Of a DNA stretch of 32,599 bases, positions 11,155 through 17,825 are shown piece by piece. The stretch is from a virus (Duplodnaviria > Heunggongvirae > Uroviricota > Caudoviricetes). The position numbers and the translations under genes were made by a program. Numbering within the stretch: position 1 is the stretch's first letter; every line of letters starts with the position of its first letter. The notes beneath the pieces were generated by a model, which did no database searches, was not told the origin of the DNA, and saw only the letters and a program-made list of their open reading frames with translations. The stretch covers positions 1 through 32,599 of the IMG/VR virus record IMGVR_UViG_2713896897_000010, one strand, 5' to 3'.

Positions 11155-11934
11155 ATGAGCGAGAAATTGAAGATCGTCTATCGCCCGTTACAAGAGCTGT
11201 CTCTGTATGCACACAATGCCAGGACACACAGCCCTGAGCAGGTGACGCAACTGGTAGAAAGCATTAAGCAATTTGGCTGGACTAATCCGGTGCTGATTGA
11301 TGAAAAGGGCGAAGTTATTGCGGGTCACGGTCGCGTTATGGCGGCTGAAGTGCTCAAAATGGATTTCGTTCCGGTCATCGTTCTGTCTGGTCTGACGGAT
11401 GATCAGAAAAAGGCGTACCGTCTGGCAGATAATCGCCTGCCGATGAATGCTGGCTGGGATGAAGATCTGTTACGGATGGAGCTGTCGGACCTAATTAATG
11501 CTGATTTTGATGTCTCCCTGACAGGCTTCAGCCCGACAGAAATTGATGAACTGTTGACGGATATTTTGCCTGGTACAGGAAATGAGGAGGAGCCGTATAC
11601 GACGAAAATTGATACGCCTGTTTATGAGCCGTCAGGCGATAAACCGGATATCTGTGAACTGTACGACGATACGAAAACTCAGGAGCTGATCAGCCGGATA
11701 CGTTCGGTGTCCCTTGATCCTGATATTGAGAAATTCCTTCTGTGCGCGGCAGAACGTCACACGGTGTTTAATTTCAGCAGAATCGCGGACTATTACGCTC
11801 ACGCCCCCGCTGAAATTCAGAGCTTTTTTGAGGAATCGGCTCTGGTGATCATTGATTATCAGCAGGCAATTGAAAATGGGTTTGTCAGGATGACGCAGCG
11901 CATGGTGGAGATCATGCATGGCGAGGAGGAGTAA
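11155..11934 (+). CDS. ParB/Srx-like nuclease-domain protein
   Basis: N-terminal KIVYRPLQELSLYAHNARTHSPEQVTQLVESIKQFGWTNPVLIDEKGEVIAGHGRVMAA resembles ParB N-terminal (ParBc) domain. Confidence 0.65.
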   Translation: MSEKLKIVYRPLQELSLYAHNARTHSPEQVTQLVESIKQFGWTNPVLIDEKGEVIAGHGRVMAAEVLKMDFVPVIVLSGLTDDQKKAYRLADNRLPMNAGWDEDLLRMELSDLINADFDVSLTGFSPTEIDELLTDILPGTGNEEEPYTTKIDTPVYEPSGDKPDICELYDDTKTQELISRIRSVSLDPDIEKFLLCAAERHTVFNFSRIADYYAHAPAEIQSFFEESALVIIDYQQAIENGFVRMTQRMVEIMHGEEE

Positions 11935-11935
11935 T

Positions 11936-12868
11936 ATGCGTGATGATTTTTGCGCCTTTATTCTGACTCACGGGCGACCGGACAAAGTTCTGACTTACCG
12001 GACGTTGCGTCGTGCTGGCTATACCGGGAAAATTTTTATCGTTGTTGATGATGAAGATAAAACCCGGCATCAGTACGTAGCAGAATTTGGTGAACAGGTG
12101 CTGGTGTTTTCCAAAGCCGATATCGCCAGTCGTTTTGACGAAGCCGACAACTTTGGCGATCGACGTTCAATCTTTTATGCCAGGAATGCCTGTCTGGGCC
12201 TGGCAAAAAAGGTTGGGTGTAAATACTACATCCAGCTTGATGACGACTATCACGAGTTTCAGTTTCGGGTAGATCGCAACTATGACCAGGCTTATTTTCC
12301 GATAAGGAAACTGGACTCGATCCTTTCTGAAATGCTGGCGTATTACGAATCAATTCCTGCGCTTTCCATCGCTATGGCGCAGGGGGGGGACTTTCTTGGT
12401 GATAATGGTGGTCATTCTGCATGGGTGAAACGCAAAGCAATGAACAGCTTTATTTGTTCTGTTGACCGACCATTCTCATTTATGGGGCGTATTAACGAGG
12501 ATGTGAATACATACACGAATCTCGGTCGTCGTGGTGAATTGTTTTTGACGATTGGCGCTGTCCAGTTAGGGCAGAAGCAAACGCAGAAAAACAGCGGCGG
12601 AATGACCGAACTGTATCTGGATTCCGGCACCTACGTTAAAAGTTTTTACTCCGTCATGTATGCGCCGTCGTGCGTAAAAATCTCACTGATGGGCGCCAGC
12701 CATAAACGCATTCACCATCAGGTCACCTGGAACAACGCTGCAGTAAAAATCCTTCACGAAAAATACAGGAAGAAGACACCCTGCATATCAATGGGGGTGA
12801 TAAATGATTCCGTATTCGAAAGTCGAGTCTCTGGCAGCGTGCCGGATGACTGCACAACAAATCGCTGA
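11936..12868 (+). CDS. GT-A-fold (GT2-like) nucleotide-sugar glycosyltransferase-like protein, no obvious TM segment
   Basis: ATG with GGAGGAG upstream; FILTHGRPDKVLTYRTLRRAGYTGKIFIVVDDEDK resembles GT2 N-terminal motifs; YYIQLDDDYHEF is a DXD-type motif. Confidence 0.45.
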   Translation: MRDDFCAFILTHGRPDKVLTYRTLRRAGYTGKIFIVVDDEDKTRHQYVAEFGEQVLVFSKADIASRFDEADNFGDRRSIFYARNACLGLAKKVGCKYYIQLDDDYHEFQFRVDRNYDQAYFPIRKLDSILSEMLAYYESIPALSIAMAQGGDFLGDNGGHSAWVKRKAMNSFICSVDRPFSFMGRINEDVNTYTNLGRRGELFLTIGAVQLGQKQTQKNSGGMTELYLDSGTYVKSFYSVMYAPSCVKISLMGASHKRIHHQVTWNNAAVKILHEKYRKKTPCISMGVINDSVFESRVSGSVPDDCTTNR

Positions 12869-13058: not shown

Positions 13059-14126
13059 ATGAGCAGACCGGACTGGGGGGCGTTGCAGCAGGAATATATT
13101 GCTGAATACACCCGCTCCGGTGTATCTCCGGTGGCGTGGTGTGAAGCAAAGGGACTGAATTACGCAACAGCCCGTCGTTACATCAAGAAACCTCCGAAAA
13201 ATGCGCAGACAGAAGTGCGCAAAACTGCGCAGACTGCGCAAAAGCAAAACGGAAAATCTCAGAAAAAAAAGACTGTATCCGATGCACTCCTGATTGAGGA
13301 GGACACGGAAGAAATTTCGTTCTGCCCCGATGAATTCGGTATTTCTGACCAGCAGGCAAAATTCGCCATGTTGGTTGCTCAGGGGAAAAAGCCGACAGAG
13401 GCATACCGCCTGGCTGGTTACGAGGGGCAAGGTGCGACAGCAAACAGCAATGCCAGTCGTATGCTTAGAAATGCCAGGGTTTTTCGTGCCATCAGCTACT
13501 TTCGCAATCATTACCAGAAACGCTATACCGCAGACCTGGATTTACTGGTGAGTCAGTTGATGGCCATCGTGCAGGCTGATCCCAATCAGCTTGCGCAATT
13601 TCGCCGTGTTAACTGTCGCTATTGCTGGGGGGATAATCACCTCTATCAGTGGCGCGATATAGCAGAATTTGACAGGGCTGCCGCGCAGGCATCCAAAGAT
13701 GGTAAACCAGAACCTGAATATGGTGGCCTCGGTTTCGTTGATAGCGCCATACCAAATCCAGACTGTCCGAAATGCGGTGGAGAAGGTACAGGTCAGCTTT
13801 ATATGGCTGATACCACTTTGCTTGATGGAAATGCGCGGCAATTGTATGCAGGAGCAAAGCTCGGAAAATTCGGCGTTGAGATCCTGCTGGAGAATAAAGC
13901 TGCCGCCCGGCGTGAATTATTGCGTTTGCTTTCCGCTGGCGGGGCATTATGTGCAGATAAGCGACTACAGGAACTGGAAATTGAACGGCGCAGAATGGAA
14001 AACCAGAAACTGCGCAAAGAGATCGAAACGGTGGAGGGTAATGAACATCCCCAGCCTGTGGCGATCAATATTAATGTGGTTGATGCCAGAGTGAGGAGTG
14101 ATGAAGATGATCTCTCCGACGCTTAA
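13059..14126 (+). CDS. Terminase small subunit (Terminase_2/P27-like core with N-terminal HTH and C-terminal Cys-rich region)
   Basis: DQQAKFAMLVAQGKKPTEAYRLAGYEGQGATANSNASRMLRNARVFRAISYF matches small-terminase core pattern; directly upstream of terL. Confidence 0.7.
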   Translation: MSRPDWGALQQEYIAEYTRSGVSPVAWCEAKGLNYATARRYIKKPPKNAQTEVRKTAQTAQKQNGKSQKKKTVSDALLIEEDTEEISFCPDEFGISDQQAKFAMLVAQGKKPTEAYRLAGYEGQGATANSNASRMLRNARVFRAISYFRNHYQKRYTADLDLLVSQLMAIVQADPNQLAQFRRVNCRYCWGDNHLYQWRDIAEFDRAAAQASKDGKPEPEYGGLGFVDSAIPNPDCPKCGGEGTGQLYMADTTLLDGNARQLYAGAKLGKFGVEILLENKAAARRELLRLLSAGGALCADKRLQELEIERRRMENQKLRKEIETVEGNEHPQPVAININVVDARVRSDEDDLSDA

Positions 14127-16416
14127 TGTGCCTCAGGCGCGATTTCTTTCTATGCCTCATAAATTTAAAGCCTATGTTGCTGGTTTTGGTTGCCTGAGGG
14201 GAAGTACGCCTGTGGTTACAGAGAATGGGATTCTACCCATTCAGGAAATAACTCGACCAATGCGCGTTTTATCTTGGTCGGATGAGAATAATCGATTTGA
14301 GCTTTCGCTAAGTGGTGGTGCGTACCCAAAAGGTGTGGCGAATCTATACCGAGTAGTGACGCAGCGAGGAGAATTTGTAGCAAGCGGACATCACTGCGTT
14401 TTTTGCGCTGACGGTAGCTATCGATCTGTGGATAGTCTGGACGAATCGGTGAAGGTATTTGCATCTTCGCAAAACTTTCTTCTGACCAGTTTGGCCGCCG
14501 TCCCGAAATCGTTGCACGCAGGTGATCCACGTTTGAATCAAAAACTCGCAGATTACTTGGGTTGTTATGCAGATGAAGCCCGTCGATATGGTCAACAACT
14601 TCTGATGGCAGCAGATAACGCCCCAGCTTCTTTTCAGCGATCAAACGATGTTCAAACATCATGCCTGTTCTGCGCATATATGGATGGTCAGCAGGCGCTG
14701 GAACAACGGCATATCCATCCAGATCAACAATTCGACCACCACGAAAGCTGGGGTTCAACTCACCCTTTCTGGCTCCACGGGGGAGCCGGTTGGCGTTGTG
14801 AATTCGGAGAATATTTTGAACGTGCTTTTCTGTGCAACCAACTTCCGCTGCGATCTCTGCCGACGTACGGTGACCATCAGCAAGAGCGAGGATTCTGTCC
14901 TTCGCACTTTCTCGAGGGGCAGGCTTCTGGCGTTGTTTCAGCGTTAACCCATAACGAGATATGCAACGATAAACATGACTGCGGTCACAACCTGCCAGAG
15001 AAGCAACTTCTGAAACGGTACGTTCTGGATGTGTTAAATCACAAATTAAATGGTCAAGAGGCGTCAAAGCCAAACTCCTTAATCGAAACCTGCAACATAT
15101 TGAGTGTAAAACTGTTGCAGGAGGCCGAGCCATATTATGACCTCCAGGTATTGGATAATAACTGCTACGTAACTGCTGATGGGACGATTCATCACAATAG
15201 CGGTAAAACATGGGTTGGGTGTGGTGGCATATGTAAGGGGATTTGGGAGCATCCGGGTATCAATCAGGGATATTTTGCGCCTACATATCCACAAATTCGC
15301 GATATTTTTTATCCTACAGTTGAAGAAGTTGCTGCCGACTGGGGGCTAAATGTAAAAATTAACGAGGGAAATAAAGAAGTTCATTTTTATTACGGACGTC
15401 AGTATCGGGGAACCACTATCTGCAGATCGATGGAGAAGCCGCAAACGATCGTCGGTTTCAAAATTGGTAATGCGCTGGTGGATGAACTGGACATTTTGCC
15501 GAAGGAAAAAGCCAGAACAGCGTGGCGCAAGATAATTGCGCGTATGCGTTATAAGGTTGATGGACTTCGCAACGGTATTGACGTTACAACCACGCCGGAA
15601 GGATTCAAATTTGTCTATGAGCAGTTTGTTAAAGCCGTACGTGAAAAAACAGAGCTGGCCTCACTGTATGGTCTGGTGCAGGCATCTACTTTCGATAATG
15701 AAAAGAATCTGCCAGCAGATTACATTCCCTCGCTCCTTGAGTCATATCCTCCAGAGCTGATTAAAGCCTATCTTCGAGGACAGTTTACTAACTTGACAAG
15801 TGGTACTGTTTACCATCAGTTTGACCGAAAACTGAATAATTGCGAAGAAGAGGAACAGCCAGGTGAGCCGATATATATCGGGATGGATTTTAACGTCGGA
15901 AAAATGGCTGGAGTCGTTCATGTGTTACGTTTTGGGCTTCCATGCGCAGTAACTGAAATCATTAACGCTTACGATACACCAGATATGATCCGTATTATTA
16001 AAGAGCGCTTCTGGTTATATGACGGGAATGATTATCGGAAAGTAAGGGAAATTTATATTTATCCTGATGCATCCGGGGATTCCAGAAAATCAAATAACGC
16101 AAGTGCGACGGATATTGCTCAGCTTAAACAGGCTGGTTTTAACGTTGTTGTAAACAGTTCGAATCCGCCAGTAAAAGATCGCGTTAACTCAATGAATGCA
16201 ATGTTCTGCAATGCCAATGGTGAGCGTCGCTATAAAGTTAATGTGAAGCGTTGTCCGGTATATGCCGAATCTCTGGAGCAACAGGTCTGGGATGACAAGG
16301 GTGAGCCTGATAAAAAATCTGGCAACGATCACCCGAATGATGCCGGAGGTTATTTTATTGTTAAGCAATTCCCTATTGTCAAACCGACCGGAAGAGTTAC
16401 ATCACTTCGGATTTAA
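14098..16416 (+). CDS. Terminase large subunit precursor containing an intein in the Walker A P-loop
   Basis: Exteins AYVAGFG | SGKTWVGCGG reconstitute a Walker A motif (GFGSGKT); Walker B-like IVGFKIGNALVDELD; 772-aa precursor, about 436 aa after splicing. Confidence 0.85.
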   Translation: MMKMISPTLNVPQARFLSMPHKFKAYVAGFGCLRGSTPVVTENGILPIQEITRPMRVLSWSDENNRFELSLSGGAYPKGVANLYRVVTQRGEFVASGHHCVFCADGSYRSVDSLDESVKVFASSQNFLLTSLAAVPKSLHAGDPRLNQKLADYLGCYADEARRYGQQLLMAADNAPASFQRSNDVQTSCLFCAYMDGQQALEQRHIHPDQQFDHHESWGSTHPFWLHGGAGWRCEFGEYFERAFLCNQLPLRSLPTYGDHQQERGFCPSHFLEGQASGVVSALTHNEICNDKHDCGHNLPEKQLLKRYVLDVLNHKLNGQEASKPNSLIETCNILSVKLLQEAEPYYDLQVLDNNCYVTADGTIHHNSGKTWVGCGGICKGIWEHPGINQGYFAPTYPQIRDIFYPTVEEVAADWGLNVKINEGNKEVHFYYGRQYRGTTICRSMEKPQTIVGFKIGNALVDELDILPKEKARTAWRKIIARMRYKVDGLRNGIDVTTTPEGFKFVYEQFVKAVREKTELASLYGLVQASTFDNEKNLPADYIPSLLESYPPELIKAYLRGQFTNLTSGTVYHQFDRKLNNCEEEEQPGEPIYIGMDFNVGKMAGVVHVLRFGLPCAVTEIINAYDTPDMIRIIKERFWLYDGNDYRKVREIYIYPDASGDSRKSNNASATDIAQLKQAGFNVVVNSSNPPVKDRVNSMNAMFCNANGERRYKVNVKRCPVYAESLEQQVWDDKGEPDKKSGNDHPNDAGGYFIVKQFPIVKPTGRVTSLRI
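14191..15198 (+). mobile_element. Intein (336 aa) inserted in the terminase P-loop
   Basis: Begins with Cys (CLRGSTPVVTENGILPIQEI, block A-like), block B-like GEFVASGHHCVF..DGSYRSVDSL, C-terminal YYDLQVLDNNCYVTADGTIHHN followed by +1 Ser. Confidence 0.8.
14216..15133 (-). CDS. HNH (HNH_3-type) endonuclease with two N-terminal HTH motifs, encoded antisense inside the intein
   Basis: Minus-strand translation gives ...RGGRIVDLDGYAVV...EVVDHIDGLHLHNNPSNLRVFDSNVDHL (verified by hand at nt 14521-14600); GGAGG 7 nt upstream of ATG at 15133; ORF tool start is 15211. Confidence 0.7.
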   Translation of the reverse strand: MARPPATVLHSICCRFRLRSLALTPLDHLICDLTHPERTVSEVASLAGCDRSHVYRCISRYGLTLKQRQKPAPRESAKDRILALADGHRTSAEIAAEVGCTEKHVQNILRIHNANRLPRGARKGELNPSFRGGRIVDLDGYAVVPAPADHPYMRRTGMMFEHRLIAEKKLGRYLLPSEVVDHIDGLHLHNNPSNLRVFDSNVDHLRATISGRRPNWSEESFAKMQIPSPIRPDYPQIDSYRQRKKRSDVRLLQILLAASLLGIDSPHLLGTHHHLAKAQIDYSHPTKIKRALVELFPEWVESHSL

Positions 16417-16418
16417 TT

Positions 16419-17825
16419 ATGGCTGATATATCAACACCCAACCTCGACTATAACGATATGCTGGAGGCGTGGGATATTAACGACGCACTGATGGGTGGCA
16501 CGCTTGAAATGCGCAGGCAGGGGAAAAATTATCTCCCTAAATGGCCTAATGAAGATGAAGACACATATAAAAAACGCTTGTCTGTGGCTACGCTACTTCC
16601 TGTGTATGAAGAAAGTATTAAGCAAAATATTGGGCGCATATTTGCAGAGCCGACAGTGCTGAGTGAAGAGACGCCGGAAAAAATCAGGGAATATGCAGAA
16701 AATATCGACATGGAGGGGAGTCGACTGGATGTATGGGCGCAGCAATTTTTCTGTCTAGCGCTTCAGTATGGCGTGGCGCATGCGCTGGTGGATTATCCTC
16801 GAACAGATATGAAAGGGATTCGGACAAAAGCTGATGAAAATGCGGTTGGTAGTCGCCCATACGTTACGATGCTGAATCCCCGTCAGGTTATTGGGTGGAA
16901 ATCGAAAGTTGAAAAAGGAAAAGTTGTTCTCACAGATTTGCGTATAAAAGAAGTCATCATTATCGATGGTGATGATTTCGGGCAGAAGAAGGTGGAGCAG
17001 ATCCGCCATATCATGTCCCGTCGCGTTGAAATTTATCGACGCAGCGAAGGTACTAATGGTGAATCTGTCTGGACGCTTCACGAGTCATGGGAAACCAGCC
17101 GTGATGATATTCCCTTGGTAACGCTTTACACGAAGAAAATCGGGTTTATGCGCGGTACACCGCCATTGCTTAATCTTGGCTTGCTGAATATCAAGCACTG
17201 GAAAAGCCAGAGCGAGCAGGACAATATTCTGCATGTTGCTCGGGTTCCATTGCTGGTGGCTTACGGACTGGACAGGAACGAAGAACTGACGGTAGGAGCA
17301 TCGACCGCGACGATTTTTGATGACAGGGCAAAAAATGGCCTTGAATATGTTGAGCATAGCGGTGCCGCGATAGAGTCTGGCGAAATATCTCTGGAGAAAC
17401 TGGAAAATCAGATGCGTCATGCCGGCGCTAAACTTCTTCGGGCTGAAAATACATCCACTAAATCTGTGGATCAGACCAATGAAGAACGGATGCAGGAAAA
17501 CTCGCCGCTTTATACAATGGCGAACTCCCTCGAAGATGCCCTCGATAATATTCTCCAGATAATGGCGGAATGGATCGGAGAGAGTTGCGGCGGCAATGTG
17601 GATGTGCGCACTGAGCTGGATGTATCTGCCCAGGTGTTTGACTCATCCTCCGCGCTGGCTGTTCAGTCATTGCGTCAGGGTGGTGATATACGTCAGATTG
17701 ATGCGGTTCGGGTGTTGCAGGCGTTGAAATTTATCGATCAGGATTCCCGTCCAGAGGAAGTGATCGATGAATTAAAAAATCAGGGCGTAACGCTGATGGG
17801 AATCAATGATGCAAACAGTGAATGA
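16419..17825 (+). CDS. Portal protein (putative)
   Basis: 468-aa ORF directly downstream of terL and upstream of a Mu F-like head morphogenesis gene; assignment by synteny and size. Confidence 0.6.
   Translation: MADISTPNLDYNDMLEAWDINDALMGGTLEMRRQGKNYLPKWPNEDEDTYKKRLSVATLLPVYEESIKQNIGRIFAEPTVLSEETPEKIREYAENIDMEGSRLDVWAQQFFCLALQYGVAHALVDYPRTDMKGIRTKADENAVGSRPYVTMLNPRQVIGWKSKVEKGKVVLTDLRIKEVIIIDGDDFGQKKVEQIRHIMSRRVEIYRRSEGTNGESVWTLHESWETSRDDIPLVTLYTKKIGFMRGTPPLLNLGLLNIKHWKSQSEQDNILHVARVPLLVAYGLDRNEELTVGASTATIFDDRAKNGLEYVEHSGAAIESGEISLEKLENQMRHAGAKLLRAENTSTKSVDQTNEERMQENSPLYTMANSLEDALDNILQIMAEWIGESCGGNVDVRTELDVSAQVFDSSSALAVQSLRQGGDIRQIDAVRVLQALKFIDQDSRPEEVIDELKNQGVTLMGINDANSE

What the first reader, a model, noticed from the sequence alone, without database searches (positions are those of the whole stretch)
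14191..15211. Terminase P-loop intein with an HNH endonuclease gene encoded on the opposite strand inside it
The terL frame carries a canonical intein (Cys start right after GFG, HHN end followed by Ser, exteins reconstituting GFGSGKT). The forward-strand middle of the intein (about 210 aa, rich in H/Q/C/W) shows no LAGLIDADG or HNH motif. The reverse strand of the same segment is open for 331 codons and encodes two HTH motifs plus a clear HNH_3 motif (VVDHIDGLHLHNNPSNLRVFDSNVDHL), with GGAGG 7 nt upstream of an internal ATG at 15133. The antisense ORF (14216-15211) is almost exactly coextensive with the intein (14191-15198). A homing endonuclease is normally an in-frame domain of the intein; an antisense, separately translated one, with the sense frame kept open as a linker, is an arrangement I am not aware of having been described.
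Basis: partly seen in the sequence, partly recalled or inferred. Interest (0 to 1): 0.9.

Follow-up and report, generated by a model that had tools for sequence, protein, structure and literature searches.

The report
Terminase intein carrying an antisense HNH gene
A self-splicing protein insert (intein) in a prophage DNA-packaging gene carries its mobility nuclease as a separate gene on the opposite DNA strand; this rare layout has been described before, but here with a new nuclease type, in a large phage family, and with about 64 codons under selection on both strands.

Summary
Window 14191-15198 is an exact 1008-bp (336-codon) in-frame insertion in the Walker-A codons of terL (GFG|C...HHN|SGKT). 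It is absent from 787 of 788 E. coli genomes that carry this terL. Its two ends match solved mini-inteins by profile. Its middle has no recognisable domain in the terL frame. The opposite strand (14216-15133) encodes an HTH-HTH-HNH_3 endonuclease with its own Shine-Dalgarno sequence.

The layout is not unique to this window. In 95 of 96 related loci the HNH gene lies antisense inside a 700-800 aa terL ORF, always in the same phase, including in viable lytic Pectobacterium phages. Codon-position conservation shows forward-only coding at the intein ends and reverse-only coding in the HNH core. About 64 codons (14239-14430) are constrained on both strands. No sense-frame stop occurs in 78 unique elements, against 7.8 expected per element.

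The most likely mechanism is a splicing-competent intein whose homing is driven by a separately translated antisense HNH. Antisense LAGLIDADG and VSR-like nucleases in inteins, including TerL inteins, are already reported (Gorbalenya 1998; Gosselin et al. 2025 preprint). This is a new variant: HNH type, Gram-negative and metagenomic phages, and overlap with the splicing domain.

The parts
14098..16416 (+). terL precursor ORF (772 aa from GTG 14098). ATG 14107 corresponds to the start annotated in intein-less alleles. The mature TerL would be 433-436 aa after removal of 336 residues.
   Evidence: ORF. (Terminase_6N 1e-30, Terminase_6C 4.7e-10). (intein-less allele annotated as a 1302-nt CDS).
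14098..14190 (+). N-extein, ending ...AYVAGFG (first half of the Walker A motif).
   Evidence: alignment to the empty allele.
14191..15198 (+). Intein, 336 codons: Cys1 ... His335-Asn336, followed by Ser+1.
   Evidence: exact 1008-bp insertion relative to 787 E. coli genomes. (HINT homology).
14191..14445 (+). N-terminal splicing (HINT) region, aa 1-85. It includes Cys1 and the block-B His68 (S65-G-H-H68).
   Evidence: invariant C1, H67, H68. (aligned to DnaB mini-inteins). (beta strands, pLDDT 55-70, weak model).
14446..15090 (+). Sense-frame linker, aa 86-300. It is kept stop-free, but its amino acids are not conserved and it has no domain.
   Evidence: no family hits. (poor conservation, indels). 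(sense codon position 2 is the relaxed one). (0 stops against 7.8 expected). (pLDDT 20-45).
15091..15198 (+). C-terminal splicing (HINT) region, aa 301-336 (...YYDLQVLDNNCYVTADGTIHHN).
   Evidence: forward-only coding signature 0.78/0.77/0.41..
15199..16416 (+). C-extein, starting SGKTWVGC (second half of Walker A), through the stop codon.
14216..15133 (-). HNH homing-endonuclease gene (305 aa from ATG 15133; stop codon at 14216-14218). It lies entirely inside the intein, on the opposite strand.
   Evidence: HNH_3, HTH families, PHROG 10730 2e-47. (351 homolog clusters, named 'HNH endonuclease' by NCBI). (AlphaFold2 pLDDT 81.7). (I-HmuI is the best nuclease match).
15141..15145 (-). Shine-Dalgarno GGAGG, 7 nt upstream of ATG 15133.
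15065..15080 (-). Alternative start: AAGGAG (15075-15080), a 7-nt spacer, then TTG (15065-15067). This is the position where about 90% of homologs have their initiator Met, and it would give a 283-aa protein.
   Evidence: column M23 nearly invariant. (SD plus start conserved at +128/131 nt from the intein C-end across the family). (residues 1-18 disordered).
14951..15019 (-). First helix-turn-helix of the HNH protein. It is specific to the enterobacterial/Acinetobacter clade and to free-standing relatives.
   Evidence: HTH_29. (helices 25-61). (aligned in the free-standing relative L022).
14801..14893 (-). Second helix-turn-helix of the HNH protein, present in the whole family.
   Evidence: HTH_28/HTH_23..
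14519..14599 (-). HNH catalytic motif VVDHIDGLHLHNNPSNLRVFDSNVDHL.
   Evidence: HNH_3. (D, H, D, HN, NLR, N and HL invariant in 72 of 72 unique relatives).
14222..14419 (-). C-terminal helical domain of the HNH protein (residues ~239-304), encoded opposite the intein's N-terminal splicing domain.
   Evidence: helices, pLDDT 79-91. (matches only PHROG 10730). (absent from the free-standing relative and from the distant intein clade).
14239..14430 (.). Dual-coding zone of about 64 codons, where both strands are under purifying selection and no codon position is relaxed.
   Evidence: pairwise nucleotide identity about 0.74/0.68/0.69 at the three positions, against 0.38-0.41 at the relaxed position elsewhere.

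Best explanation
This is a class-1 intein inserted between Gly and Ser of the TerL Walker-A motif. Its homing endonuclease is not an in-frame domain. It is a separate gene on the opposite strand.

**Sense strand**
- terL is translated straight through the element.
- The first ~85 and last ~36 intein residues form the HINT splicing domain.
- The ~215 residues between them are an unstructured linker that only has to stay free of stop codons.
- Splicing removes all 336 residues and rebuilds GFGSGKT.

**Antisense strand**
- A 283-305 aa protein is translated from its own Shine-Dalgarno sequence and start codon.
- Its layout is HTH-HTH-HNH_3 core plus a C-terminal helical domain.
- It most likely nicks or cuts intein-less terL alleles at the P-loop codons when two related phages or prophages meet in one cell.
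- Recombinational repair then copies the intein together with the HNH gene into the cut allele.

**Phase of the two frames**
- Position 1 faces position 1, and each wobble position faces the other gene's position 2.
- The HNH gene therefore dictates the linker sequence.
- Where the HNH C-terminal domain overlaps the HINT N-domain, about 64 codons serve both proteins.

**Status of the steps**
- Shown here: the anatomy, the homologies, selection on each frame, family-wide conservation and patchy distribution.
- Inferred: actual splicing, transcription and translation of the HNH gene, its target site, and homing.
For: **Insertion**
- It is exact and in-frame, and absent from 787 of 788 E. coli genomes and from 10 phage records that carry the same terL.

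**HINT domain**
- A profile of the family's N- and C-terminal regions matches solved mini-inteins end to end: 4o1r 8e-13, 1mi8 4e-12, Spl DnaX 2e-8, gp41-1 and PI-MtuI.
- 26 of 28 members hit Pfam Intein_splicing.
- Cys1, His68, His335-Asn336 and Ser/Thr+1 are conserved.

**Splicing must work**
- The same architecture sits in the single terL gene of eight Pectobacterium phage genomes and of Pseudoalteromonas phage PHS3, all isolated phages. The Ymer-genus phages are described as infective in PMC11445585.

**HNH is a real, selected gene**
- It passes the Pfam HNH_3 and HTH thresholds and hits 13 HNH PHROG families.
- It has 351 homolog clusters.
- The catalytic motif is invariant in 72 of 72 unique relatives.
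- Reverse-frame position identities in the core are 0.64/0.70/0.38.
- A conserved SD plus ATG is present, with the SD's G conserved at a sense-frame wobble site.

**Obligate coupling**
- In 95 of 96 loci found with the HNH protein, the opposite strand carries a 700-800 aa ORF covering 100% of the match. The phase is identical in all 78 unique elements where junctions were mapped, nearly all with ...G|C...HN|SGK[ST] junctions.

**Sense frame kept open by selection**
- 0 stops occur in 78 unique elements, against 7.8 expected per element after synonymous resampling. Only 0.04% of resamplings were stop-free.

**Mobility**
- The element is found in TerL families whose exteins are only 21-30% identical while the HNH proteins stay about 53% identical.
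- There are local discordances: HNH 0.91 vs extein 0.79, and HNH 0.83 vs extein 0.88.
- A 99-100% identical block holding terL and the intein lies within otherwise 81-96% identical prophages.
Against: - No promoter for the antisense gene was found. The sigma-70 consensus scan gave no hits in 13900-15700 on either strand, and no conserved -10/-35 element appears at wobble sites upstream of the start.
- The window's own intein scores below Pfam's gathering cut-off (18.9 vs 35.8 bits).
- The AlphaFold2 model of the intein is of low confidence (pLDDT 38.9, shallow alignment).
- HNH identity correlates with extein identity (r = 0.755). Much of the spread within lineages may therefore be vertical, and recent homing is not demonstrated.
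- The +1 Ser codon pattern gives no clean co-conversion signal (AGY in 51 of 78, TCN in 23).
- No expression, splicing or cleavage data exist.
Confidence: 0.8

Rival explanations
1. The antisense HNH ORF is an unexpressed relic. The element behaves as a mini-intein with an oversized linker, inherited vertically with terL.
For: - No antisense promoter was detected.
- HNH and extein identities are correlated (r = 0.755).
- Long antisense ORFs can arise by chance in this window (28325-29053).
Against: - The reverse frame shows a classical coding signature, 0.64/0.70/0.38.
- The catalytic motif is invariant in 72 of 72 unique relatives spanning about 45-98% identity.
- The SD and start are conserved.
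- The sense-frame amino acids of the linker are unconstrained, so the nucleotide conservation there can only come from the reverse frame.
- The element occurs in TerL families that are only 21-30% identical.
Confidence: 0.07
2. A free-standing HNH gene simply landed in terL and inactivated it. The gene is then a pseudogene, as the RefSeq annotation has it, or a 'fractured' gene with split-intein halves.
For: - PGAP annotates the MEI003 copy as HNH endonuclease plus a terL pseudogene 'missing N-terminus'.
- The GenBank record of PHS3 annotates a truncated terL.
- Gene callers yielded only 4 sense-frame protein clusters against 351 antisense ones.
Against: - The sense frame is uninterrupted in 78 of 78 unique elements, although 7.8 stops per element are expected.
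- HINT homology and the splice-junction residues are conserved.
- The element sits in the only terL of isolated, infective phages.
- The one truncated sense product examined (P0121) is a deletion remnant of a defective prophage and not a split intein.
Confidence: 0.04
3. The HNH is a terminase-associated packaging nuclease, like the HNH proteins needed for cos cleavage in HK97-like phages, or an anti-competitor nuclease. On this view it is not a homing enzyme.
For: - It sits inside the packaging gene.
- HNH genes next to terminase genes are common (abstract of PMC3592412).
- In a lysogen, an antisense gene could be expressed while the late genes are silent.
Against: - 787 E. coli prophages and 10 phages with about 95%-identical terL flanks lack it, so it is dispensable for packaging.
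- It occurs in unrelated TerL families but always at the same P-loop codon boundary. That fits target-site recognition and not a partnership with one terminase type.
- Its closest structural relative among nucleases is the intron homing enzyme I-HmuI.
- An exclusion role is compatible with homing and cannot be ruled out as an added effect.
Confidence: 0.07
4. The insertion is a group I or group II intron carrying an antisense endonuclease gene, and the open sense frame is incidental.
For: Antisense endonuclease genes in group I introns are known (from my own knowledge of the Didymium intron literature; not checked here).
Against: - Rfam gave no match at E <= 1 on either strand of 13800-15600.
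- The length is a multiple of three, and the sense frame is open in 78 of 78 unique elements.
- The ends show a forward-frame coding signature and HINT homology.
Confidence: 0.01

Closest known systems
Inteins with a homing endonuclease encoded on the antisense strand. Examples are the Synechocystis DnaX and Chloroflexus SpoVR-like inteins (Gorbalenya 1998; Gogarten 2002) and actinophage inteins with antisense LAGLIDADG or VSR-like endonucleases (Gosselin, Arsenault & Gogarten, bioRxiv 10.1101/2025.01.02.630785).
   Same: - A separate endonuclease ORF lies on the opposite strand inside an intein.
- The extein/intein frame is kept open.
- The sense-frame middle has no recognisable fold.
- Hosts include the terminase large subunit.
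- The proposed origin is invasion of an intein by a free-standing endonuclease gene.
   Different: - The endonuclease here is HNH_3 with HTH modules. That preprint lists HNH only as an in-frame domain.
- The hosts are Gram-negative phages, prophages and metagenomic viruses, not actinophages.
- The antisense ORF extends about 64-75 codons into the N-terminal splicing domain under two-strand constraint. [quoted passage not shown]
- A 2026 preprint (10.64898/2026.09.14.751524) describes the DnaX endonuclease as a '+2 ORF', so the strand in that case is reported inconsistently.
Mycobacteriophage TerL P-loop inteins (Kelley et al. 2016, PMC5050341).
   Same: An intein in the Walker-A/P-loop of the TerL ATPase. 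Splicing is required for terminase function. Distribution among related phages is patchy.
   Different: - Those carry in-frame endonuclease domains that were shown to cleave intein-less terL.
- Their insertion points (TerL1-a between Lys and Thr; TerL1-b one residue away) differ from the Gly|Ser boundary used here.
'Fractured genes': split inteins with a free-standing endonuclease gene between the halves (Dassa et al. 2009, PMC2677866).
   Same: A free-standing-type endonuclease gene is lodged at the endonuclease-insertion region of an intein in phage-like genes, including a terminase. This supports the 'splicing domain first, endonuclease invades later' model.
   Different: - There the host gene is broken into two ORFs that must trans-splice. 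Here it is one continuous ORF in 78 of 78 unique elements.
- Their endonucleases are GIY-YIG or Vsr-like, not HNH.
ShiLan-type 'hidden' out-of-frame HNH insertions in phage methylase genes (Arsenault et al. 2025, PMC11855218).
   Same: - An HNH gene overlaps a host gene whose own frame stays stop-free.
- The HNH cores are homologous: 44% identity over 82 residues to the ShiLan gp65 region.
   Different: - The ShiLan HNH is on the same strand in another frame, and that insertion has no detectable splicing domain.
- Here the HNH is antisense and is flanked by a bona fide HINT domain.
I-HmuI, the HNH homing endonuclease of a group I intron in Bacillus phage SPO1 (PDB 1u3e).
   Different: - I-HmuI is encoded in an intron, on the sense strand, and is not overlapped by another coding frame.
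- The domain order differs, and the similarity scores are modest.

Membership tests
Intein (class 1, HINT-domain protein-splicing element) | In-frame insertion in a conserved host motif, absent from close homologs. | tested here: met
   A 1008-bp insertion (336 codons) lies between G and S of GFG|SGKT. 787 of 788 E. coli genomes and 10 phage records have the uninterrupted allele.
Intein (class 1, HINT-domain protein-splicing element) | N-terminal nucleophile (Cys/Ser/Thr at position 1) and block-B His. | tested here: met
   Cys1 is invariant in 28 of 28 diverse members. H67 and H68 are invariant. The residue three positions before His68 is Ser in the window and varies (S/T/A/N) in relatives.
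Intein (class 1, HINT-domain protein-splicing element) | C-terminal His-Asn followed by a Ser/Thr/Cys +1 extein nucleophile. | tested here: met
   HHN|S in the window. HN|S or HN|T in all mapped relatives.
Intein (class 1, HINT-domain protein-splicing element) | HINT fold or homology of the joined N- and C-terminal regions. | tested here: met
   The profile hits solved mini-inteins end to end (4o1r 8e-13, 1mi8 4e-12). 26 of 28 members hit Pfam Intein_splicing, best 2.9e-12. Caveats: the window sequence alone scores below the Pfam cut-off (18.9 vs 35.8 bits), and the AlphaFold2 model is low-confidence.
Intein (class 1, HINT-domain protein-splicing element) | Protein splicing actually occurs. 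| not testable with these tools
   Indirect only: the same architecture is in the sole terL of isolated infective phages.
HNH homing endonuclease (HNH_3 / I-HmuI-like) | HNH catalytic motif with conserved His/Asn residues. | tested here: met
   Pfam HNH_3 scores 27.7 bits, above the 24.8 cut-off. DH..D...HN...NLR....N..HL is invariant in 72 of 72 unique relatives.
HNH homing endonuclease (HNH_3 / I-HmuI-like) | Appended sequence-specific DNA-binding modules. | tested here: met
   Two HTH modules pass Pfam cut-offs. Structural matches include the bipartite HTH domains of Mos1/Tc3 transposases and other HTH proteins.
HNH homing endonuclease (HNH_3 / I-HmuI-like) | Resides in a mobile intervening sequence with patchy distribution at one conserved target site. 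| tested here: met
   The Gly|Ser P-loop boundary is the same in TerL families only 21-30% identical. 1 of 788 E. coli genomes with this terL is occupied.
HNH homing endonuclease (HNH_3 / I-HmuI-like) | Cleaves or nicks the element-free allele and promotes homing. | not testable with these tools
   No biochemical or genetic data. Elevated flank divergence (21 mismatches in 15199-15398 against 6 in the next 300 nt) and a near-identical mosaic block are only suggestive.
Intein with antisense-encoded homing endonuclease (Gorbalenya 1998; Gosselin et al. 2025) | Endonuclease ORF on the opposite strand within the intein, with the sense frame uninterrupted. | tested here: met
Intein with antisense-encoded homing endonuclease (Gorbalenya 1998; Gosselin et al. 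2025) | Endonuclease of the LAGLIDADG or VSR-like/EDxHD type, as in all described cases. | tested here: not met
   The antisense protein is HNH_3. There was no LAGLIDADG or Vsr hit in either frame. Hence this is a new variant and not another member.
Intein with antisense-encoded homing endonuclease (Gorbalenya 1998; Gosselin et al. 2025) | Secondary ORF lies between the splicing blocks, outside the splicing domain. | tested here: not met
   The HNH C-terminal domain (14222-14419) is encoded opposite HINT residues ~11-77. Both frames are constrained over 14239-14430. A distant sub-clade (L016-L021) does keep the HNH outside the N-domain.
Split intein / 'fractured gene' (Dassa et al. 2009) | Host gene divided into two separately translated ORFs carrying the intein halves. 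| tested here: not met
   A single continuous sense ORF is present in 78 of 78 unique elements.
Group I/II intron with endonuclease gene | Conserved ribozyme secondary structure, with removal at the RNA level. | tested here: not met
   No Rfam match at E <= 1. The ends show a forward coding signature and HINT homology.

The most novel reading that the evidence does not exclude
The C-terminal helical domain of the HNH enzyme (residues ~239-304) may have been created by overprinting. On this reading the HNH reading frame extended into the antisense strand of the pre-existing HINT N-terminal domain, and the new peptide became a functional, probably DNA-binding, module. About 64 codons now encode two folded protein segments on opposite strands, in a phase where no substitution is silent in both.

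Support:
- The domain matches only its own PHROG family.
- It is absent from a free-standing relative with the same HTH-HTH-HNH layout.
- It is absent from a distant intein-borne clade whose HNH stops before the HINT N-domain.
- It is nevertheless confidently predicted as helical, and it is under selection.

A further possibility that is not excluded: in lysogens the antisense gene is expressed while terL is silent, and the enzyme then cuts the terL of incoming intein-less relatives. That would combine homing with exclusion of competitors.
Probability: 0.3. Interest if true: 0.75.

Novelty: new variant of a known kind. Interest (0 to 1): 0.55.

Why it matters
**Intein evolution.** The 'splicing domain first, endonuclease invades later' model predicts intermediates in which a free-standing endonuclease gene sits inside an intein without being fused to it. 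Only a few such cases are documented, mostly in actinophages. This family adds a different nuclease class (HNH). It is widespread: 293 viral contigs, 16 loci among species-representative genomes (one genome per species), and 351 protein clusters. It is also present in cultivable phages such as the Pectobacterium Ymer genus, where splicing, antisense expression and homing could be tested directly.

**Overlapping genes.** The element is an unusually clean natural example of antisense overlapping genes. Three regimes lie side by side in one kilobase: sense-only coding, antisense-only coding with a stop-free constraint on the sense strand, and true two-strand coding. That makes it useful for testing models of overlapping-gene evolution and possible domain birth by overprinting.

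**Annotation.** Current pipelines mis-annotate these loci. They call terL a pseudogene or truncate it, and call only the HNH gene. As a result, intact prophages and phages appear to lack a functional large terminase.

Tried and rejected
1. **AlphaFold2 of the sense-frame intein.** Only four database homologs were allowed into the alignment, and the model had mean pLDDT 38.9. I used it only as weak support and did no fold search on it.
2. **Promoter search for the antisense gene.** The sigma-70 consensus scan found nothing. Family-wide conservation at sense wobble sites upstream of the start showed only the SD. The promoter remains unknown.
4. **Co-conversion from the +1 Ser codon.** E. coli empty sites have TCG and the window has AGC. 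Across the family AGY occurs in 51 of 78 and TCN in 23 of 78, so there is no clean signal.
5. **Truncated sense-frame proteins as split-intein halves.** P0121 turned out to be a deletion remnant fused to a tail-tube gene. P0124 was not examined. I rejected the idea on the P0121 result.
6. **Intron hypothesis.** Rfam gave no hits.
7. **Intein-versus-extein identity as proof of recent horizontal transfer.** No pair combined >=85% HNH identity with <60% extein identity. The correlation is r = 0.755, with only moderate discordances.
8. **Literature search for an antisense HNH in an intein.** Nothing turned up beyond the Gogarten-lab papers. The library lacks most subscription journals, so absence is not proof.

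Full report
**1. What is in the sequence**

The window is a Rac-like prophage. It carries an integrase, RecT, a ParB-like gene, a glycosyltransferase, terS, terL, a portal-region gene (DUF4055), and tape-measure and minor tail genes. The near-identical copy in E. coli MEI003 lies next to trkG.

The forward ORF 14098-16416 (772 aa) is a large terminase subunit, matching Terminase_6N at 1e-30 and Terminase_6C at 4.7e-10.

A megablast of 13900-15500 against 5,426 complete E. coli genomes found 788 genomes with this terL. In 787 of them the match is 593 bp in two pieces, which is the query minus exactly 1008 bp. Only strain MEI003 holds the full stretch, at 99.4% identity. Ten phage records also have only the short allele.

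Aligning the two alleles places the insertion at 14191-15198, between GGT (Gly) and AGC (Ser). The empty allele reads ...GCT GGT TTT GGC|TCG GGC AAA ACA..., which is AGFG|SGKT, the Walker A motif. The insert begins with Cys and ends His-His-Asn, and the next residue is Ser.

**2. The reverse strand**

ORF 14216-15211 (331 codons) translates to a protein that passes Pfam's gathering scores for HNH_3, HTH_29, HTH_28 and HTH_23. It matches PHROG 10730 'HNH endonuclease' at 2e-47, plus a dozen other HNH PHROG families.

GGAGG lies 7 nt upstream of ATG 15133. A second plausible start is TTG 15067, preceded by AAGGAG at the same spacing. It coincides with the initiator Met of about 90% of homologs.

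The sense translation of the insert hits nothing except a weak Intein_splicing match.

All elements of the observation are therefore confirmed. A control shows that length alone is not evidence: a 242-codon antisense ORF opposite the minor tail gene (28325-29053) has no family hit.

**3. It is an intein**

I joined the first 100 and last 45 residues of 28 diverse family members and searched the resulting profile against solved structures. It matched mini-inteins over their whole length:
- DnaB 4o1r, 8e-13
- Ssp DnaB 1mi8, 4e-12
- Spl DnaX, 2e-8
- Pho RadA, gp41-1 and PI-MtuI

26 of the 28 members hit Pfam Intein_splicing, best 2.9e-12. Cys1, the block-B His, His-Asn and the +1 Ser/Thr are conserved. 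Rfam finds no intron or other RNA family.

The AlphaFold2 model of the intein had only a five-sequence alignment and is of low confidence (pLDDT 38.9). It does show beta strands at residues 1-85 and 301-323 and nothing confident in between.

**4. The arrangement is a conserved family trait**

tblastn first showed both halves co-located on opposite strands in eight Pectobacterium phage genomes (seven named Pectobacterium phages plus 'Dickeya phage Setonix') and in Pseudoalteromonas phage PHS3. In these phages terL is a single 708-771-codon open frame with GFG|C...HHN|TGKS or GAG|C...HHN|SGKS junctions. A ~240-aa HNH ORF lies antisense inside it. These are isolated phages. The Ymer-genus paper describes them as infective and never mentions an intein.

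Searching with the HNH alignment gave 16 loci in species-representative genomes and 293 in viral contigs, of which the best 80 were kept.
- In 95 of these 96 loci the strand opposite the HNH carries a 700-800 aa ORF covering the whole match.
- Nearly all have ...G|C...HN|SGK[ST] junctions.
- All 78 unique elements use the same relative phase.

The exception, L022, is a free-standing HTH-HTH-HNH gene next to a TIR-pentapeptide gene.

The big protein database holds 351 clusters of the antisense protein, several named 'HNH endonuclease' by NCBI. It holds only 4 clusters of the sense-frame intein. RefSeq annotates the MEI003 terL as a pseudogene.

**5. Which frame is selected where**

I measured mean pairwise nucleotide identity by codon position over 72 unique elements (refined).

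| Region (window coordinates) | Frame used for positions | Pos 1 | Pos 2 | Pos 3 | Reading |
|---|---|---|---|---|---|
| Intein codons 1-20 (14191-14250) | sense | 0.61 | 0.70 | 0.38 | Ordinary sense coding |
| HNH core (14461-14900) | reverse | 0.64 | 0.70 | 0.38 | Antisense coding; sense position 2 is the relaxed site, so the linker's amino acids are not selected |
| C-terminal splicing region (15121-15198) | sense | 0.78 | 0.77 | 0.41 | Sense coding |
| Overlap zone (measured over 14251-14430) | sense | 0.74 | 0.68 | 0.69 | No position relaxed; both proteins under purifying selection |

Finer 8-codon windows place the overlap zone at 14239-14430.

In this phase, position 1 faces position 1 and each wobble position faces the other gene's position 2. 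No substitution can be silent in both genes. This follows directly from the coordinates.

The sense frame is kept open by selection. There are no stops in any of 78 unique elements. Resampling synonymous codons of the antisense gene, even with the family's own codon usage, gives 7.8 sense stops per element. Only 0.04% of resamplings are stop-free.

The HNH catalytic motif is invariant in 72 of 72. The G of the SD is conserved at a sense wobble site.

**6. The antisense protein**

AlphaFold2 with a 42-sequence alignment gives pLDDT 81.7. The model contains two three-helix HTH modules, a beta-beta-alpha HNH core, and a C-terminal helical domain at residues 239-304 with pLDDT 79-91.

The C-terminal domain is encoded opposite HINT residues ~11-77.
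- It matches only PHROG 10730.
- It is missing from the free-standing relative L022, where the alignment covers residues 28-215.
- It is missing from the distant intein-borne clade L016-L021, whose HNH ends before the HINT N-domain.

This leaves open the possibility that the domain arose by overprinting.

**7. Mobility**

The same Gly|Ser boundary is occupied in TerL families whose C-exteins are only 21-30% identical, while the HNH proteins remain about 53% identical. Within enterobacteria there are discordances. The window and the Enterobacter locus L007 share 0.91 HNH identity but 0.79 extein identity. The window and L027 share 0.83 and 0.88.

Between the window and MEI003, 13794-16650 is 99-100% identical, within prophages that are otherwise 81-96% identical.

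Against an empty allele, there are 21 mismatches in the first 200 nt of the C-extein and 6 in the next 300 nt.

These patterns fit homing with co-conversion, but ordinary phage mosaicism could also produce them. Overall, HNH and extein identities correlate (r = 0.755). Recent homing is therefore inferred and not shown.

**8. Comparison with what is known**

The bioRxiv preprint 10.1101/2025.01.02.630785 states that antisense LAGLIDADG endonucleases in inteins were reported by Gorbalenya (1998) and Gogarten et al. (2002). [quoted passage not shown] It argues for invasion of inteins by free-standing endonuclease genes.

Two related papers from the same group describe an out-of-frame HNH in a methylase without a splicing domain (PMC11855218) and the cyanobacterial DnaX intein's out-of-frame endonuclease. 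The HNH core here is 44% identical over 82 residues to the ShiLan element. Dassa et al. (2009) described the split-gene counterpart. Kelley et al. (2016) described TerL P-loop inteins with in-frame endonucleases.

Four things are new here:
- an HNH-type antisense endonuclease;
- a large family outside actinophages;
- extension of the antisense gene into the splicing domain with two-strand constraint;
- a quantitative demonstration of the three selection regimes.

**9. Verdict**

- **Finding:** the finding is real and well supported.
- **Mechanism:** a splicing intein with a separately translated antisense HNH homing endonuclease. Confidence is 0.8. The architecture is near certain, while expression, splicing and homing are inferred.
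- **Novelty:** a new variant of a known but rare kind.
- **Interest:** moderate (0.55). The overprinting reading would raise it if confirmed.

Noticed in passing
window 28325-29053 (-) versus 28349-29047 (+): A 242-codon ORF lies antisense to, and almost coextensive with, a minor tail protein gene (phrog_18, 1.8e-148). The antisense ORF has no family hit and is in the codon-aligned phase. It is most likely a chance ORF, and it serves as a negative control for the HNH case.
   Followed up: partly
window 11155-12868 (+): A ParB-like nuclease/partition-type gene (phrog_620, 1e-86) is followed by a TET-associated glycosyltransferase that resembles glucosyl-HMC glucosyltransferase (Pfam TAGT 1.9e-35; phrog_842 1.6e-99). 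The pair sits just upstream of terS and may be a DNA hypermodification module in this Rac-like prophage.
   Followed up: no
window 13794-16650 versus L001 (E. coli MEI003, NZ_CP071263.1): The 3' end of terS plus the whole terL with its intein is 99-100% identical between the two prophages, while the neighbouring regions are 81-96% identical. This is a mosaic block that carries the element. The 9 differences inside the intein cluster in 14774-15110.
   Followed up: partly
window 15199-15398 versus L002 (empty allele, E. coli C8): There are 21 mismatches in the first 200 nt of the C-extein and only 6 in the following 300 nt. The flanking codons also differ (GGC to GGT; TCG GGC to AGC GGT). This may be a co-conversion tract or a target-site immunity variant.
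   Followed up: partly
L001 3317-5604; L004 2541-4519: Public annotation handles these loci poorly. PGAP calls the HNH gene and marks terL as a pseudogene 'missing N-terminus'. The PHS3 GenBank record truncates terL. The protein database holds 351 antisense-frame clusters against 4 sense-frame ones.
   Followed up: yes
L103 3001-3730 (NCBI GCA_001052035.1 contig JWDQ01000126.1): This is a defective prophage in which a deletion joins the middle of a related intein/HNH element directly to a tail-tube gene. The terL C-terminus and the head genes are gone.
   Followed up: partly
L016-L021 (for example L017 2831-3769): A distant sub-clade of TerL P-loop inteins (GGRG|C...NHN|SGKS) carries a homologous but shorter antisense HNH (195-227 aa). 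Its HNH stops 50-80 codons before the intein N-terminus and lacks the C-terminal helical domain.
   Followed up: partly
L083 2876-3547: A shortened element: a 224-aa intein whose antisense ORF is only 170 codons and lacks the HTH region. It may be a decaying endonuclease on the way to a mini-intein.
   Followed up: no
L022 2767-3702 (Calditrichia MAG): A free-standing HTH-HTH-HNH_3 gene is homologous to the antisense protein over residues 28-215. It is not inside a terminase gene and lies next to a pentapeptide-repeat/TIR-domain gene.
   Followed up: partly
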